The notes under the pieces: generated by a model
Seen by the model: only the letters and a program-made list of their open reading frames with translations
Databases searched by the model: none
Told to the model about the DNA's origin: nothing
Made by a program: the position numbers and the translations under genes
In this document: positions 1,549 to 44,691 of the stretch, one piece after another
How positions within the stretch are numbered: the stretch's first letter is position 1
Layout of the letters: each line of letters opens with the position of its first letter
Assembly (NCBI RefSeq): GCF_003334405.1
Contig: NZ_QOWM01000003.1
Length of the DNA: 64,000 bases
Source: Escherichia coli
Lineage (GTDB): Bacteria; Pseudomonadota; Gammaproteobacteria; Enterobacterales; Enterobacteriaceae
Direction: 5' to 3' (one strand)

Positions 1549-3822
1549 TCACTTATCTTTCTTCAGCGCCCCTAGCGTTGGCGTTTCGTCAAAGAAGTTC
1601 CATGGTTTCAGCAGAGTATGTACCCATTCGGTCGGCATAATCGGCCACTCTTCGGCGCGGGCCACATGTGTGGTGCCGGTGGTCATCCAGACAACGGCGT
1701 CGGTGTTGTCCAGCGACTCGTTATCCTTACTGTATTGTCCAAGACCGGTGTCATGAGTAGAACGGTTCGGATATTTGCCTTCCGGGAAACGCTCGCCAGG
1801 ATGATAACGCGTTACCCAGAGCTGCTTGTCCATAAAGCTTAAACGATGATAGATCCACTCGTCCGGCGCGAACTGGGCACCTTTTGCTACCGGGTGAGTA
1901 CCACCTGCATAAGGAATAATTTGATAGGAAACCGGATTGCCCATGCGGTTCTCTTTGTTCGGGTTACTCAACAGACGAATCGTGCCCGGATCAAATTTCT
2001 GTGCGGCATCCTGTTCATTGCCGATGTTGTACTGATTAACTTGCATGGTACTGGTGCGTGGGCCACCGGCAGTATTCGGTTTTACCACTGGGTCCATCGC
2101 CACCGGGCTGTTATTCTCGCCATCTACATCCAGATCGAGGAGGAAATTATAAATATGTTGGTGTGTAGTACCCACGATATTGTGATCGATAAGCGTGCCG
2201 TAGCGCGTGTCATCTTTCGCCGTCTCATCGTGCATGGTTTTCGCTTTAACACCTTTCACCGCTTCGATGCCCGTAGCACCGGCATCGATGCCAATAGTGC
2301 CGTTTTCATGGAAGATCCAGTCAAAAATGTAGTCATAGTTACCCACTGTACTGATCCAGCGCACCACTAACTCCCGGCGTTCGGTACTGACGTTGGGCTG
2401 GCCCATTTCCTGATGCTTATACTCCGGCCCGGCATAACGTTCAAATACCGCGATAGCGCGAGGGATCTCCATCGGCACGCCAGTGTAGTCGGCGATGGTT
2501 TCATTAAGGAGCACTGCGTTAGACGGGGCATCTTTACCACGAGCAATTGGTGAGGTTAGCGTGCCCATACCGTAGTCACCAGAGTCCAGATACGCTTTAA
2601 AGTACCAGCCAATATCAGGATCACCGTAAGGCACAATCATGCCGCCGAGAGAACCTTCGTACATGACTTTGCGTTTGGTGCCATTGTCGTTATAAGTCAC
2701 GGTGGAGATCATCGGCCCGACGCGAGAGTTCATGCTGAGGTGAAAATCCCAGTTCCGCCAGTGAATCATATCGCCAGTAATGGTGTAATTTTTACCTTCA
2801 GGCTCAATGATTTGCATAGGCTTAACTGCCGGAGCAACGCGGTCACGGCCATCAAATGGGCGTGCGGTCATTGGCACCGGAACTACCGGACCTTCTTCAA
2901 TCTTAACGATTTTTTTCTGTTCTAAATCAACGACCGCCACCAGGTTTTCGATGGGATGTGCCCAGTAGTTGCCATCACCGACATCAAGATAGCTGATGAC
3001 TTTGAGCAACCGGGCATCTTGTTTCAGGCCATCTTTACCATCGAAATAACCTACGGTCAGCGGCGTGGTAATCACTTTTTTCGCATCAGTAATACCGCGT
3101 TTCTTCACGGCAGCGGCAAATTCTTCACTGTTGTTAATAATGTTCTGCACACTGGCGAAATCATCCAGCAACACCATACCGTGGGCGTCTTTAATGGGTT
3201 GCCAGGAGAGCAGTTTGTTGTTTTGCAGATCCACCACCGCTTCGATGATATGTTTGCCGTCGAGCATAATGACGTCGGCTTTGCGCGGCTGGTCAACCGG
3301 TTTGTTTTCCAGCGCAAACGCCCAGACAGCTTCTTTATCTGGCGGTAGCAGGGAGATCTCAGTAAAACGGGTATTGGGTTTGAAGTCCGCGGAAGCTTTA
3401 ACAATTTCAACGGCCTGTTTAATTTCGTCCGCAGTTAGCGCATTAAGTGGGTGAGGGCGCTTTTCTACCTGAAAGGTTTGATCCAGCCCGGACTGGAAAA
3501 CATCGTTAATAAAGGTGTCAGAAACCCAGGCTTTATTGTCTTTCATCACTACCGGTACTTGCAGTGCCAGAGGCTGACCATTAACAATTGCTGTTTGCGC
3601 ACCAGGCTTCACTTTCACGTACGCGCCATCTTTAATCAGGGTAAAGAGCTGGGCGTAGTCGTCCCACTGCACATCGGCACCAAATTCTTTAAGCGTTTTA
3701 TCCATTGGCACCATATGCGCTTCACCACCGTGGGCAAATACCGGCGCTTGCCAGGCGAAACTTAAGGCGACTGCCAACGCCAGGGTTGTTTTACGGGCAG
3801 AATACAGAGAGGGGCTTCCCAT
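1549..3822 (-). CDS. tynA: copper-containing primary amine oxidase (periplasmic)
   Basis: 769-aa ORF; Met13 gives the 757-aa form starting MGSPSLYSARKTTLALAVALSFAWQAPVFA (signal peptide); amine oxidase homology over full length. Confidence 0.9.
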   Translation of the reverse strand: MGSPSLYSARKTTLALAVALSFAWQAPVFAHGGEAHMVPMDKTLKEFGADVQWDDYAQLFTLIKDGAYVKVKPGAQTAIVNGQPLALQVPVVMKDNKAWVSDTFINDVFQSGLDQTFQVEKRPHPLNALTADEIKQAVEIVKASADFKPNTRFTEISLLPPDKEAVWAFALENKPVDQPRKADVIMLDGKHIIEAVVDLQNNKLLSWQPIKDAHGMVLLDDFASVQNIINNSEEFAAAVKKRGITDAKKVITTPLTVGYFDGKDGLKQDARLLKVISYLDVGDGNYWAHPIENLVAVVDLEQKKIVKIEEGPVVPVPMTARPFDGRDRVAPAVKPMQIIEPEGKNYTITGDMIHWRNWDFHLSMNSRVGPMISTVTYNDNGTKRKVMYEGSLGGMIVPYGDPDIGWYFKAYLDSGDYGMGTLTSPIARGKDAPSNAVLLNETIADYTGVPMEIPRAIAVFERYAGPEYKHQEMGQPNVSTERRELVVRWISTVGNYDYIFDWIFHENGTIGIDAGATGIEAVKGVKAKTMHDETAKDDTRYGTLIDHNIVGTTHQHIYNFLLDLDVDGENNSPVAMDPVVKPNTAGGPRTSTMQVNQYNIGNEQDAAQKFDPGTIRLLSNPNKENRMGNPVSYQIIPYAGGTHPVAKGAQFAPDEWIYHRLSFMDKQLWVTRYHPGERFPEGKYPNRSTHDTGLGQYSKDNESLDNTDAVVWMTTGTTHVARAEEWPIMPTEWVHTLLKPWNFFDETPTLGALKKDK

Positions 3823-31874: not shown

Positions 31875-32489
<615 letters not shown>

Positions 32490-40521: not shown

Positions 40522-41052
40522 ATGGAAAATAAATATTCAAGGTTACAAATCAGCATTCACTGGCTGGTCTTTTTACTGGTTATCGCAGCGTATTGCGCAA
40601 TGGAGTTTCGTGGTTTCTTCCCACGTAGCGATCGGCCACTCATCAACATGATTCATGTTTCCTGTGGCATCTCAATTCTCGTGCTGATGGTCGTTCGTCT
40701 TTTGTTAAGGCTGAAATACCCAACCCCGCCGATTATACCTAAGCCAAAACCGATGATGACGGGACTGGCGCATTTGGGACATTTGGTGATTTATCTCCTG
40801 TTTATTGCGCTGCCAGTGATTGGTTTGGTGATGATGTATAACCGGGGCAACCCGTGGTTTGCGTTTGGTTTGACGATGCCTTACGCTTCAGAGGCCAATT
40901 TCGAACGGGTAGATAGCTTAAAGTCGTGGCATGAAACGCTGGCGAATCTGGGATATTTTGTCATCGGGTTGCACGCTGCGGCTGCACTGGCACACCACTA
41001 TTTCTGGAAGGACAACACACTTCTACGCATGATGCCGCGTAAACGTTCCTGA
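40522..41052 (+). CDS. cybB: cytochrome b561
   Basis: 176-aa form from ATG 40522 (MENKYSRLQISIHWLVF...); SD aggaaa; transmembrane His ligands. Confidence 0.9.
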   Translation: MENKYSRLQISIHWLVFLLVIAAYCAMEFRGFFPRSDRPLINMIHVSCGISILVLMVVRLLLRLKYPTPPIIPKPKPMMTGLAHLGHLVIYLLFIALPVIGLVMMYNRGNPWFAFGLTMPYASEANFERVDSLKSWHETLANLGYFVIGLHAAAALAHHYFWKDNTLLRMMPRKRS

Positions 41053-41062
41053 AGGATATTTA

Positions 41063-41126
41063 AAGAAAACGCCTGTACTAAAACCGACCCGTGGTACAGG
41101 CGAAGAATACGGGTCTACATCGGAAG
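41063..41126 (-). ncRNA. rydC: Hfq-dependent small RNA RydC
   Basis: 64-nt minus-strand segment CUUCCGAUGUAGACCCGUAUUCUUCGCCUGUACCACGGGUCGGUUUUAGUACAGGCGUUUUCUU in the cybB-ydcA intergenic region, ending in a stem (CCUGUAC/GUACAGG) plus U-tract. Confidence 0.6.
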
Positions 41127-41296
41127 CGCCTATTATATTTATTTGTATGATAAATAAAACCATAATCCTTGCCCATACGTCCATCTGGCTTATTTTTAAT
41201 CAATTCACCCGATCTTTGATCTCATCAACGGTATCAAAATAAACCAGCGTATAACGTTCAAATCGAACATAAGATTCGATAAACCATGGAGGTTAT

Positions 41297-41470
41297 ATGA
41301 AAAAACTGGCACTTATTTTGTTTATGGGAACGCTTGTTTCCTTTTATGCCGATGCCGGGCGCAAACCCTGTTCTGGTTCGAAAGGGGGGATCTCACACTG
41401 TACGGCAGGCGGCAAATTTGTCTGTAATGATGGTTCTATTAGTGCATCGAAAAAAACATGCACTAACTGA
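41297..41470 (+). CDS. ydcA: small secreted Cys-containing protein
   Basis: 57-aa ORF MKKLALILFMGTLVSFYADA|GRKPCSGSKGGISHCTAGGKFVCNDGSISASKKTCTN with signal peptide and RBS ggagg; too short for the ORF track. Confidence 0.7.
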   Translation: MKKLALILFMGTLVSFYADAGRKPCSGSKGGISHCTAGGKFVCNDGSISASKKTCTN

Positions 41471-41541
41471 AGTGTAAAAGGGGTGCCATGAGAAAATGAA
41501 TCTGCTAGTCAAATGCGCGGGGAAAATCCCCGCGCTTGCCC

Positions 41542-41738
<197 letters not shown>

Positions 41739-41749
<11 letters not shown>

Positions 41750-41794
41750 TCGTTGGCCTCGGTTGATAGAAATATCGGTCGGGGCCTTCGTCTT
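41739..41794 (+). ncRNA. sokB: Sok-type antisense RNA (antitoxin of hokB), approximate extent
   Basis: Plus-strand promoter-like TTGCCG-N17-TAAGAT (41703-41731) inside mokB would start a transcript near 41738 antisense to the mokB start region; 3' end not resolved. Confidence 0.4.
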
Positions 41795-42023
41795 TCTGAT
41801 TCCCGGTTAGCCTGAAAACAGAAAGTCTCAGGCACCCGCAGGCATCCTATGAGGTTTCCTTAGGGACGAAAATAATCACTTCACGAAATTGCGTGCTGTT
41901 TTCCAGAATTTTTCGTCATTCGGGTTAGCCAGTTTAGCCATTCGTTACTCTCTTCATTCCAATAGCATTAATTTTCTATGCAATAATTGTTGTAAAAATG
42001 TGACGCAAAGAGGTTTTTGGTCA

Positions 42024-42050
42024 TAAGTAATTACCGTCAAGTGCCGATGA
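42024..42050 (+). promoter_or_regulatory. sigma28 (FliA)-type promoter of trg
   Basis: TAAGTAAT-N11-GCCGATGA versus consensus TAAAGTTT-N11-GCCGATAA, ending about 40 bp upstream of the trg ATG. Confidence 0.5.
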
Positions 42051-42089
42051 CTTTCTATCAGGAGTAAACCTGGACGAGAGACAACGGTA

Positions 42090-43730
42090 ATGAATACAAC
42101 TCCCTCACAGCGATTAGGTTTTTTGCATCACATCAGGTTGGTTCCGTTATTTGCCTGCATTCTAGGCGGTATCTTAGTTCTATTCGCATTAAGTTCAGCC
42201 CTGGCTGGCTATTTCCTCTGGCAGGCCGATCGCGATCAGCGTGATGTTACTGCGGAGATTGAGATTCGGACCGGGTTAGCGAACAGTTCAGATTTTTTGC
42301 GTTCAGCCCGGATCAATATGATTCAGGCCGGGGCTGCGAGTCGTATTGCGGAAATGGAAGCAATGAAGCGAAATATTGCGCAAGCCGAATCGGAGATTAA
42401 ACAGTCGCAGCAAGGTTATCGTGCTTATCAGAATCGACCGGTGAAAACACCTGCTGATGAAGCCCTCGACACTGAATTAAATCAACGCTTTCAGGCTTAT
42501 ATCACGGGTATGCAACCTATGTTGAAATATGCCAAAAATGGCATGTTTGAAGCGATTATCAATCATGAAAGTGAGCAGATCCGACCGCTGGATAATGCTT
42601 ATACCGATATTTTGAACAAAGCCGTTAAGATACGTAGCACCAGAGCCAACCAACTGGCGGAACTGGCCCATCAGCGCACCCGCCTGGGTGGGATGTTCAT
42701 GATTGGCGCGTTTGTGCTTGCCCTGGTCATGACGCTGATAACATTTATGGTGCTACGTCGGATCGTCATTCGTCCACTGCAACATGCCGCACAACGGATT
42801 GAAAAAATCGCCAGTGGCGATCTGACGATGAATGATGAACCGGCGGGTCGTAATGAAATCGGTCGCTTAAGTCGTCATTTACAGCAAATGCAGCATTCAC
42901 TGGGGATGACAGTAGGGACTGTTCGACAGGGCGCGGAAGAGATTTATCGTGGCACCAGCGAAATTTCAGCTGGCAATGCGGACCTGTCATCTCGCACCGA
43001 AGAACAAGCGGCGGCTATCGAACAAACTGCCGCCAGCATGGAGCAACTCACTGCGACGGTGAAACAGAATGCGGATAACGCGCATCATGCCAGCAAACTG
43101 GCGCAAGAGGCTTCTATTAAAGCCAGCGATGGCGGGCAGACGGTTTCCGGTGTAGTAAAAACGATGGGCGCTATCTCCACGAGTTCGAAGAAAATTTCTG
43201 AGATCACCGCCGTCATCAACAGTATTGCTTTCCAGACGAATATTCTGGCACTGAATGCTGCCGTTGAAGCCGCGCGAGCGGGTGAGCAAGGGCGTGGATT
43301 TGCCGTTGTCGCCAGCGAAGTACGGACACTCGCAAGTCGCAGCGCTCAGGCGGCGAAAGAGATTGAAGGCTTGATCAGTGAATCAGTCAGGTTAATTGAC
43401 CTGGGGTCGGATGAGGTGGCAACGGCCGGGAAAACCATGAGCACTATTGTTGATGCCGTCGCGAGTGTCACACATATCATGCAGGAAATCGCCGCCGCCT
43501 CGGATGAACAAAGTAGAGGCATAACGCAGGTTAGCCAGGCGATTTCTGAAATGGATAAGGTGACGCAACAGAATGCTTCTCTGGTAGAAGAGGCCTCAGC
43601 GGCGGCGGTGTCCCTTGAAGAACAGGCGGCACGATTAACTGAGGCGGTGGATGTATTCCGTCTGCACAAACATTCTGTGTCGGCAGAACCTCGCGGAGCG
43701 GGTGAACCAGTTAGTTTCGCTACGGTGTGA
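42090..43730 (+). CDS. trg: methyl-accepting chemotaxis protein III (ribose/galactose transducer)
   Basis: 546 aa; two TM segments, HAMP, and highly conserved MCP signalling domain. Confidence 0.9.
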
Positions 43731-43737
43731 AAATGTT

Positions 43738-43765
43738 CAAGGAGGGATCGACAGATCCCTTCACC
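43738..43765. terminator. hairpin between convergent trg and ydcI
   Basis: GGGATC-gaca-GATCCC stem in the 37-bp gap. Confidence 0.4.
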
Positions 43766-43767
43766 TT

Positions 43768-44691
43768 TCAGAACGGCATTGATTTTCGAATAGCGTTAAT
43801 CATCAACTGGCAACCAGAAGAGAACGTCGCATCTACGCGGGTCAGTATTCCAATCGGTTCGCCTGCACCATGTCCCGGAACAGGCAGGGCCACCAGCGTG
43901 GCATGACGCAGGTCGTCTTTTACAGCGCCAGAAGGGACAAACCACACGTAATCGTATTCAACCGTAAGTTGACGAGATAGCGAAGCAGACAGCGTTTCGA
44001 TACAACCCGAAGGAATTTTACAGCCCTGGCTCTGCACTAATGCATCTGAATGCTGGCGTGGCGCAGTGCCTTCTGGTGATACAACGACCGGCCATTCCAG
44101 CACCCGGCTTAGCGTTACGTTCTCCTGAAGTAGCGGGTGATTAGGGCGGACAACCAGCTTCAACGATTCAAGAAACAGCAGTTCGTAATTAAGCCCGGTC
44201 ATCAGTTCAGGATCTGACATCCGACCAATGCCGATATCGATTTCCCCGGTTTTTAAACCCGCCAGAATCATAGGGTTACTCATTGTCGCAACTTGCAAGG
44301 TCGTCTCTTTTTGTTGCTGATGAAACTGACCTATAACCGAAGGTAATATCCCCAGTGCCGCAGTAGGTAGTGCACCAACCCTGACGACATCATTATTAAG
44401 ACCTTCTTTACGATGAAGCGACCGTCCGGCAGTGTTGATGGCGTCAAGAACTCTGACTGCATGCGTTAAAAATTGTTCGCCGGGTAAGGTAAGTTGCGCC
44501 CCCTGACGACCACGCTCAAACAAGCGAGCGCCAGTCAGCTGCTCCAGTTCATTCAATGTCTTAGAGAGCGCAGGTTGACTCAAATTAAGGGTTTCAGCCG
44601 CGCGCCCCAAAGTTCCTTGTTGTGCGACAGCTACGAATGTATGAAGGTGGCGCAAACGGATGCGCTGACTAAACAGACTATTTTTTTCCAT
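43768..44691 (-). CDS. ydcI: LysR-family transcriptional regulator
   Basis: 307-aa form from ATG 44691 (MEKNSLFSQRIRLRHLHTFVAVAQ...); N-terminal HTH; the ORF-track 354-aa version is an upstream extension. Confidence 0.85.
   Translation of the reverse strand: MEKNSLFSQRIRLRHLHTFVAVAQQGTLGRAAETLNLSQPALSKTLNELEQLTGARLFERGRQGAQLTLPGEQFLTHAVRVLDAINTAGRSLHRKEGLNNDVVRVGALPTAALGILPSVIGQFHQQQKETTLQVATMSNPMILAGLKTGEIDIGIGRMSDPELMTGLNYELLFLESLKLVVRPNHPLLQENVTLSRVLEWPVVVSPEGTAPRQHSDALVQSQGCKIPSGCIETLSASLSRQLTVEYDYVWFVPSGAVKDDLRHATLVALPVPGHGAGEPIGILTRVDATFSSGCQLMINAIRKSMPF

What the first reader, a model, noticed from the sequence alone, without database searches (positions are those of the whole stretch)
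42024..42050. sigma28-type promoter in front of trg
TAAGTAAT-N11-GCCGATGA closely matches the FliA consensus and ends about 40 bp upstream of the trg start, placing trg in the late flagellar/chemotaxis regulon.
Basis: partly seen in the sequence, partly recalled or inferred. Interest (0 to 1): 0.3.

Follow-up and report, generated by a model that had tools for sequence, protein, structure and literature searches.

The report
Known FliA (sigma-28) promoter of trg
The motif is real and is the already characterised flagellar sigma-factor (FliA) promoter of the E. coli chemoreceptor gene trg, which published work shows is also helped by the cAMP receptor protein CRP binding just upstream, so the finding is correct but ordinary.

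Summary
TAAGTAAT-N11-GCCGATGA sits exactly at window 42024..42050 (+), 39 nt before the trg ATG (42090). The sequence match alone is modest. The -10 matches 7/8 and the -35 only 4/8. It is the third-best FliA weight-matrix hit in the window, with 0.3-0.5 equally good hits expected by chance per 64 kb. Other evidence settles it. The identical 28-mer is listed as the trg FliA site in the E. coli FliA ChIP-seq study (FAT 23), and trg RNA falls from 108 to 4 in a fliA deletion. RegulonDB's trgp1 start site maps to window 42059. A trg::lacZ fusion needs FliA. In 80 of 81 trg upstream regions from at least 15 enterobacterial genera, a TAA-N16-GYCGAT motif lies at the same place while the spacer varies freely. 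A CRP site (AAATGTGACGCAAAGAGGTTTT, 41996..42017) has the same spacing to the core promoter as in aer. Its TGTGA half-site is invariant in all 81 sequences, and published work shows that CRP binds and activates this promoter. Verdict: observation confirmed, interpretation supported, already known, low interest.

The parts
42024..42031 (+). -35 octamer of the sigma-28 promoter (TAAGTAAT; 4/8 to TAAAGTTT, TAA core kept)
   Evidence: Sequence. It is part of the 28-mer listed for trg in the FliA ChIP-seq table. TAA is conserved in 80/81 orthologous upstream regions; position 4 is G, T or C and never the consensus A.
42032..42042 (+). 11-nt spacer between the -35 and -10 octamers
   Evidence: The length is constant, but the sequence varies freely among orthologues.
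42043..42050 (+). -10 octamer (GCCGATGA; 7/8 to GCCGATAA, includes the CGA core at 42045..42047)
   Evidence: GCCGAT is found in 80/81 orthologues, and the non-consensus G at position 7 in 75/81. These are the most conserved columns in an unanchored MAFFT alignment.
42056..42059 (+). Transcription start region. RegulonDB trgp1 TSS = C at 42059; the aer-equivalent position is 42056.
   Evidence: Table S3 of PMC4183435 reproduces RegulonDB trgp1 with TSS 1490463 (NC_000913.2) and evidence codes HIPP and HTTIM. It was mapped onto the window through the printed sequence. Position 42056 follows from identical spacing to aer, whose start was mapped by primer extension.
41996..42017 (+). CRP site AAATGTGACGCAAAGAGGTTTT (13/22 to consensus; perfect distal half AAATGTGA, poor proximal half, T-tract kept). 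Its centre at 42006.5 is -49.5 from position 42056.
   Evidence: TGTGA (41999..42003) is invariant in 81/81 orthologues, 25 or 26 nt before the -35 T. The spacing equals that of aer. CRP gel shift and CRP-dependent trg100::lacZ activity are reported in PMC2859248.
42056..42089 (+). Short 5' untranslated leader (31-34 nt, depending on the start site) with GAGAG ribosome-binding-like sequence at 42076..42080
   Evidence: GAGAG and the ATG are conserved in the alignment.
42090..43730 (+). [quoted passage not shown]
   Evidence: ORF. Annotation in matching RefSeq records, including MG1655 b1421 at the same locus coordinates.

Best explanation
This is trgp1, the single functional promoter of the chemoreceptor gene trg. 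RNA polymerase carrying the flagellar sigma factor FliA (sigma-28) recognises TAAGTAAT (-35) and GCCGATGA (-10), which are 11 nt apart. Transcription starts a few bases downstream, at about 42056-42059, and yields a leader of about 31-34 nt before the trg ATG. FliA is held inactive by FlgM until the hook-basal body is complete, so trg is expressed as a late (class 3) flagellar/chemotaxis gene. The core promoter is a deliberately imperfect match. cAMP-CRP bound at 41996..42017, centred about 49.5 bp upstream of the aer-equivalent start, helps recruit the sigma-28 holoenzyme. Expression therefore needs FliA and is boosted when CRP is active. Shown by published experiments: FliA occupancy, fliA dependence, CRP binding and CRP activation. 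Shown here: exact coordinates, matrix score, the same CRP-to-core spacing as aer, and conservation of both elements in 81 loci. Inferred: the exact start nucleotide, the recruitment mechanism (by analogy with aer) and the role of the conserved T-tract.
For: The window is identical to MG1655 over 41001..43800. The identical 28-mer TAAGTAATTACCGTCAAGTGCCGATGAC is listed for trg with ChIP-seq FAT 23, and RNA-seq falls from 108 to 4 in the fliA deletion. The microarray data show fliA dependence. The RegulonDB trgp1 start site lies 20 bp after the motif centre, within the 18-23 bp rule for FliA promoters. trg100::lacZ needs sigma-28 and is activated by CRP, and CRP shifts the trg fragment in a gel-shift assay. 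No sigma-70-like promoter was found in 41400..42300. In 80 orthologous loci from other species, the best matrix hit upstream of trg averages 15.4 bits, against 4.3 on the opposite strand and 5.0 in coding sequence, and it beats both controls in 79/80. An unanchored alignment shows conserved islands exactly at TGTGA, the T-tract, TAA and GCCGATGAC. TGTGA lies at fixed spacing in 81/81 sequences. The spacing from the CRP half-site to the -35 is 25 nt in both aer and trg of E. coli.
Against: The sequence match is only mid-range: rank 27-32 of 52 known sites, with 0.27-0.5 equally good hits expected by chance per 64 kb. Two sites in the window score as well or better (31967..31994 and 57384..57411) and are not among the published FliA-bound sites, so the motif alone proves little. 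I found no primer-extension or 5' RACE mapping of the trg start. The RegulonDB start (42059) is 3 nt downstream of the aer-equivalent position (42056). The proximal half of the CRP site matches none of the five consensus bases. The Cappable-seq supplement held here gave no entry for this start.
Confidence: 0.97

Rival explanations
1. The motif is a chance resemblance, and trg is transcribed from some other promoter (for example a sigma-70 promoter). Its fliA dependence would then be indirect.
For: A crude consensus search gives 15 hits in the window against 5.8 expected. The matrix score is reached by chance 0.27-0.5 times per 64 kb, and two unbound sites in the window score as well.
Against: FliA ChIP-seq peaks here, and the published motif is this exact 28-mer. 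The recorded start site lies at the expected distance. No sigma-70-like promoter is found in the intergenic region. The motif and its position are conserved in 80/81 orthologous loci while the surrounding bases vary. The residual expression in the fliA deletion is 4 against 108.
Confidence: 0.01
2. It is a FliA promoter, but CRP plays no direct part, and the conserved TGTGA/T-tract upstream serves another purpose. Candidates are the divergent hokB promoter region, an UP-like element, or another regulator's site.
For: The proximal CRP half-site is 0/5 to consensus, and the site as a whole is 13/22. In most genera the half-site sits 1 nt further from the -35 than in E. coli. CRP also controls flhDC, so part of any CRP effect in vivo is indirect (the paper's own discussion).
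Against: CRP shifts the trg fragment with an affinity similar to aer. trg100::lacZ is CRP-activated in a strain where FliA is supplied from a plasmid, independently of CRP. The spacing is identical to the experimentally dissected aer promoter. AAnTGTGA is invariant in 81/81 sequences.
Confidence: 0.05

Closest known systems
E. coli K-12 trgp1 (RegulonDB ECK120034223), FliA/sigma-28 class 3 promoter
   Same: It is the same object. The window is base-for-base identical to MG1655 over 41001..43800. The RegulonDB promoter string and the ChIP-seq 28-mer match the window sequence exactly.
   Different: Nothing differs in the promoter itself. The window comes from a K-12-like strain that lacks the IS2D and IS30C insertions of MG1655 in ydbA, about 22 kb upstream. 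This is irrelevant to the promoter.
aer promoter of E. coli (sigma-28 dependent, CRP-activated from -49.5; Hollands et al. 2010, PMC2859248)
   Same: The architecture is the same: a CRP half-site starting 25 nt before the -35 T, an 11-nt spacer, and an imperfect -10 3' end (aer GCCGACAT, trg GCCGATGA). Both promoters drive MCP-type receptors, and both are FliA- and CRP-dependent.
   Different: The aer start site, the alpha-CTD positions and the spacing requirements were mapped experimentally. For trg, only the gel shift and reporter assays were done. The -35 of aer (TAAAGATA) is closer to consensus than that of trg (TAAGTAAT). The proximal CRP half-site is TCAAA in aer and GAGGT in trg.
Canonical class 3 promoters such as tar, motA, flgM, tsr and fliC
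   Same: They have the same two-octamer layout and the same sigma factor. All are bound by FliA in ChIP-seq.
   Different: Most of them score much higher: 22-27.5 bits for tar, flgM, motA and tsr, against 14.8 for trg (fliC, at 15.3, is the exception). They show no direct CRP binding or effect. The one exception for binding is a distant, non-functional site at tsr.

Membership tests
sigma-28 (FliA) dependent promoter | -10 element resembling GCCGATAA with the CGA core | tested here: met
   GCCGATGA at 42043..42050 matches 7/8, and CGA is present. GCCGAT is kept in 80/81 orthologues.
sigma-28 (FliA) dependent promoter | -35 element resembling TAAAGTTT | tested here: inconclusive
   TAAGTAAT matches only 4/8 in register (consensus). 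The TAA core is conserved in 80/81 orthologues. On its own this is a weak match.
sigma-28 (FliA) dependent promoter | 11-nt spacer between the two octamers | tested here: met
   Positions 42032..42042 make 11 nt. The TAA-N16-GYCGAT register is kept in 80/81 orthologues.
sigma-28 (FliA) dependent promoter | Overall score against a matrix of bound sites well above background | tested here: inconclusive
   The site scores 14.8-15.8 bits with a leave-one-out matrix. It ranks 3rd in the window, but 0.27-0.5 such hits are expected per 64 kb.
sigma-28 (FliA) dependent promoter | Transcription start at the proper distance downstream (18-23 bp from motif centre) | tested here: met
   The test is by reading published data. 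RegulonDB trgp1 TSS 1490463 is 20 bp from motif centre 1490443, and the distance rule comes. I found no dedicated primer-extension mapping for trg.
sigma-28 (FliA) dependent promoter | FliA holoenzyme occupancy in vivo | tested here: met
   The data are published, not computed here. The ChIP-seq peak has FAT 23, and its centre is 18 bp downstream of the motif centre.
sigma-28 (FliA) dependent promoter | Expression lost without fliA | tested here: met
   The data are published. RNA-seq falls from 108 to 4, the microarray shows -2.0x and +2.2x, and the lacZ fusion is sigma-28 dependent.
sigma-28 (FliA) dependent promoter | Conservation of the elements upstream of orthologous genes | tested here: met
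   In 80 loci of other species, the best hit beats both controls in 79/80. The unanchored alignment shows the elements as conserved islands.
CRP-activated sigma-28 promoter (aer/trg type) | CRP site with the aer spacing to the core elements (centre about -49.5) | tested here: met
   TGTGA starts 25 nt before the -35 T in trg, and TGCGA does so in aer. The site centre at 42006.5 is -49.5 from 42056. It would be -52.5 if the start is 42059.
CRP-activated sigma-28 promoter (aer/trg type) | CRP binds the fragment and stimulates sigma-28 dependent expression | tested here: met
   The data are published: a gel shift and trg100::lacZ activity in CRP+/- and FliA+/- backgrounds. This cannot be tested computationally.
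CRP-activated sigma-28 promoter (aer/trg type) | Good match of both half-sites to TGTGA-N6-TCACA | tested here: not met
   The distal half is a perfect match, the proximal half is 0/5, and the site overall is 13/22. Orthologues keep TGTGA but have GGCG in the proximal half. A one-sided site is common among real CRP sites, so this weakens the case but does not exclude function.

The most novel reading that the evidence does not exclude
The trg promoter may be held under selection as a sub-optimal sigma-28 promoter that must be helped by CRP. That would make it a conserved FliA-AND-CRP gate across Enterobacteriaceae, not just an E. coli peculiarity. In 81 orthologous regions the CRP half-site TGTGA is invariant. 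The -35 never has the consensus A at position 4, and the -10 keeps a non-consensus G at position 7 in 75/81. By contrast, 32/51 and 46/51 other E. coli FliA sites have A at these positions, and restoring them would raise the score from 14.8 to 24 bits. Most genera place the CRP half-site 26 nt from the -35 rather than 25, so the 'unusual' -49.5 geometry described in E. coli may be a 1-bp-shorter variant of a widespread -50.5 arrangement.
Probability: 0.45. Interest if true: 0.25.

Novelty: already known. Interest (0 to 1): 0.07.

Why it matters
It adds nothing new for E. coli. The trg promoter, its FliA dependence and its CRP activation are in RegulonDB and in at least three papers. The practical value is as a calibration case. 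A first-stage reader correctly found a genuine alternative-sigma promoter from sequence alone. However, the sequence score by itself would not have separated it from two equally good unbound sites in the same window. One modest extension comes from the comparative analysis. The FliA core, the CRP half-site and the non-consensus bases are conserved in at least 15 genera, which suggests that dual FliA-plus-CRP control of the ribose/galactose receptor is ancestral in Enterobacteriaceae.

Tried and rejected
1. The consensus search with mismatches and the matrix scan cannot by themselves establish significance; I kept them only as context.
2. The sigma-70 promoter scan of 41400..42300 found nothing, so an alternative housekeeping promoter was rejected.
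3. The Rfam scan of 41200..42400 found only the hok/sok element at 41686..41837, with no RNA family in the trg leader.
4. I tried to obtain a direct start-site measurement. The Thomason dRNA-seq paper is not held. The Cappable-seq supplements hold no entry near the expected coordinates. The 2017 preprint has no supplements held. The only start site obtained is the RegulonDB entry copied in Table S3 of PMC4183435.
5. My first attempt to anchor the orthologue stack on G[CT]CGAT picked a GTCGAT in the ribosome-binding region in 25 loci. I redid it with TAA-N16-GYCGAT.
6. I assumed the window was MG1655 throughout. This is false for the first ~20 kb, because of IS and indel differences, but true for the trg region.

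Full report
**Observation**

The window read shows TAAGTAAT at 42024..42031 on the + strand. An 11-nt spacer follows at 42032..42042, then GCCGATGA at 42043..42050. The next long ORF starts with ATG at 42090 and encodes a 546-aa protein. Matching E. coli records annotate this ORF as the methyl-accepting chemotaxis protein Trg. The gap between the -10 octamer and the ATG is 39 nt. The coordinates, the sequence and the stated distance are therefore all correct.

**Where the window comes from**

The 401-bp region around the site is found in 4547 of 5426 complete E. coli genomes. Gene order is aldA, gapC (pseudogene), cybB, ydcA, hokB/mokB/sokB, trg, ydcI, ydcJ.

From about 20.2 kb onward the window is collinear with NC_000913.3 starting at 1450381, with about a dozen single-base differences. 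It is identical to MG1655 over 41001..43800. Upstream it lacks the IS2D and IS30C insertions of MG1655 in ydbA and differs by a 294-nt indel. It is thus a K-12-like strain but not MG1655 itself.

**Is the match more than chance?**

By sequence alone, only marginally.

- The consensus printed in the literature is TAAAGTTT-N11-GCCGATAA. The -10 matches 7/8, but the -35 matches only 4/8.
- TAAA-N15-GCCGATAA with up to two mismatches hits 15 places in the window, against 5.8 expected.
- I built a weight matrix from the 51 other FliA-bound sites of Fitzgerald et al. 2014, leaving trg out. With it the site scores 14.8 bits, or 15.8 with only the strongly bound sites.
- That score is the third-best in the window on both strands, and only rank 27-32 among the 52 published sites.
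- Shuffled windows reach the score 0.27-0.5 times per 64 kb.
- Two sites score as well or better: 31967..31994 (+, antisense inside azoR) and 57384..57411 (+, inside rlhA). Neither is among the published bound sites.

'Closely matches the consensus' is therefore an overstatement. The motif alone would not be decisive.

**Published experiments**

- Table 2 of Fitzgerald, Bonocora and Wade (PLoS Genet 2014, PMC4183435, unchanged in the correction PMC4203485) lists the 28-mer TAAGTAATTACCGTCAAGTGCCGATGAC for trg. This is identical to window 42024..42051. The FliA ChIP-seq signal is 23-fold above threshold.
- In the same table, trg RNA falls from 108 to 4 in a fliA deletion and is flagged significant.
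- Zhao, Liu and Burgess 2007 (PMC1935009) report trg 2.0-fold down in a fliA deletion and 2.2-fold up on sigma-F induction.
- Table S3 of the 2014 paper reproduces the RegulonDB entry trgp1, with its start site at 1490463 (NC_000913.2). The site is marked by the capital C in ...gccgatgactttctatCaggag, which is window 42059. The evidence codes are HIPP and HTTIM.
- That start lies 20 bp from the published motif centre. This is inside the 18-23 bp interval found for 38 of the 52 FliA sites.
- A scan for sigma-70-type promoters in 41400..42300 finds none.

**Comparative evidence computed here**

One scan of the species-representative genome collection with the first 300 residues of Trg returned 80 orthologous loci. 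They come from Escherichia, Citrobacter, Enterobacter, Lelliottia, Leclercia, Kosakonia, Phytobacter, Pseudocitrobacter, Silvania, Siccibacter, Franconibacter and others.

- In the 300 nt upstream of each start, the best + strand matrix hit averages 15.4 bits. The opposite strand averages 4.3 and coding sequence 5.0. The upstream hit exceeds both controls in 79 of 80 loci.
- The hit lies 39-71 nt from the guessed start codon in 79 of the 80 loci. Enterobacter mori (L035, 244 nt) is the exception.
- A MAFFT alignment made without anchoring on the motif shows conservation concentrated in a few islands. These are AAnTGTGA, a T-tract, TAA, GCCGATGAC, the GAGAG ribosome-binding-like sequence and the ATG. 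The spacer and flanks vary.
- TAA-N16-GYCGAT is present in 80 of 81 sequences.

This is a clear phylogenetic footprint of the two promoter elements.

The conserved upstream island is a CRP site, AAATGTGACGCAAAGAGGTTTT, at 41996..42017. It matches the 22-bp consensus at 13/22, with a perfect distal half and a poor proximal half.

Hollands, Lee, Lloyd and Busby (Mol Microbiol 2010, PMC2859248) studied this region directly.

- CRP shifts the trg promoter fragment with an affinity similar to aer.
- A trg100::lacZ fusion depends on sigma-28 and is activated by CRP. This held in a background where FliA supply was made independent of CRP.
- The spacing between the CRP site and the core elements is the same as at aer, where CRP acts from -49.5.

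I verified the spacing on the sequences. The CRP half-site begins 25 nt before the -35 T in both aer (L082) and trg. This places the trg site centre (42006.5) at -49.5 relative to position 42056, or -52.5 relative to the RegulonDB start at 42059.

TGTGA is invariant in all 81 orthologous regions. It lies 25 nt before the -35 in the five Escherichia sequences (the window and L002-L005) and two Silvania sequences, and 26 nt before it in the other 74.

**Mechanism**

*Shown by published experiment:* FliA holoenzyme binds here, trg expression needs FliA, and CRP binds and stimulates.

*Established background knowledge:* FliA activity is gated by the anti-sigma factor FlgM and hence by completion of the hook-basal body. 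This makes trg a late (class 3) gene.

*Inferred by analogy with aer:* CRP recruits the sigma-28 holoenzyme through an alpha-CTD contact placed between CRP and sigma region 4. The conserved T-tract at 42014..42018 lies where that contact would fall, but this was not tested.

The exact start nucleotide is not settled. It is 42059 from a high-throughput mapping and 42056 by analogy with aer.

**A modest extension**

The deviations from consensus are themselves conserved.

- The -10 keeps G at position 7 in 75/81 sequences, and the -35 never has A at position 4.
- Among the other 51 E. coli FliA sites, A occurs at these positions in 46 and 32 cases respectively.
- Restoring both octamers to consensus would raise the score from 14.8 to 24 bits.

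Together with the invariant CRP half-site, this suggests the promoter is kept weak so that it stays CRP-dependent. That is an inference. The 81 sequences are related, and no phylogeny-aware test was run.

**Comparison with known systems and verdict**

This is not merely similar to a known promoter. It is RegulonDB trgp1 itself, one of the two described CRP-activated sigma-28 promoters; the other is aer. All defining features of a FliA promoter that could be checked are met. The exceptions are the weak -35 match and a matrix score that is only borderline against chance.

The feature is already known, and interest is low.

Noticed in passing
window 41996..42017 (+): A CRP site, AAATGTGACGCAAAGAGGTTTT, lies immediately upstream of the sigma-28 -35 element. 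It has the same spacing to the core promoter as the CRP site of aer, and its TGTGA is invariant in 81/81 trg orthologue regions.
   Followed up: yes
window 42027 and 42049; loci L002-L081: The non-consensus bases of the trg promoter are themselves conserved across genera. The -35 position 4 is never A, and the -10 position 7 is G in 75/81. Most other E. coli FliA sites have A at both positions. This suggests selection for a weak, activator-dependent core promoter.
   Followed up: partly
loci L006-L081 versus window and L002-L005, L033, L036: The distance from TGTGA to the -35 T is 26 nt in 74 sequences. It is 25 nt in the five Escherichia sequences (the window and L002-L005) and two Silvania sequences. 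The T-tract keeps its distance to the -35 in both groups.
   Followed up: partly
window 31967..31994 (+), 57384..57411 (+), 2767..2794 (-): These three sites score as well as or better than the trg promoter with the FliA matrix: CAAATTTCACATCGGTAATGCCGATAAA antisense inside azoR, one inside rlhA, and one in the tynA region. None is among the 52 published FliA ChIP-seq sites, so they are probably chance matches or very weak intragenic promoters.
   Followed up: partly
window 41686..41837 (-) and 41739..41795 (+): The Rfam 'sok' family (RF01794) matches the minus strand at 109.7 bits, whereas RefSeq annotates sokB on the plus strand at 41739..41795. A terminator-like hairpin at 41755..41786 (+) ends where sokB ends, so read-through from sokB into trg is unlikely.
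   Followed up: no
window about 18000..20200: Relative to MG1655, the window lacks 2559 nt that correspond to IS2D plus IS30C in ydbA, and it differs by a further 294-nt indel in ydbA. The strain may therefore carry an uninterrupted ydbA autotransporter gene.
   Followed up: partly
L035 (Enterobacter mori), upstream of trg: The conserved promoter lies 244 nt from the trg start instead of about 52 nt. This suggests an insertion of about 190 nt in the leader.
   Followed up: no
loci L006-L079, leader about +5 to +30: Outside Escherichia, the trg leader carries a well conserved ACAGGCGTGTTTTTACGC-like stretch, a possible small hairpin. The Escherichia sequences lack it. Its function is unknown.
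   Followed up: no
window 41850..42250: The trg promoter region is absent from 879 of 5426 complete E. coli genomes. One hit (H15) keeps only about 70 bp of the hokB-side sequence. trg is therefore not universal in the species.
   Followed up: no
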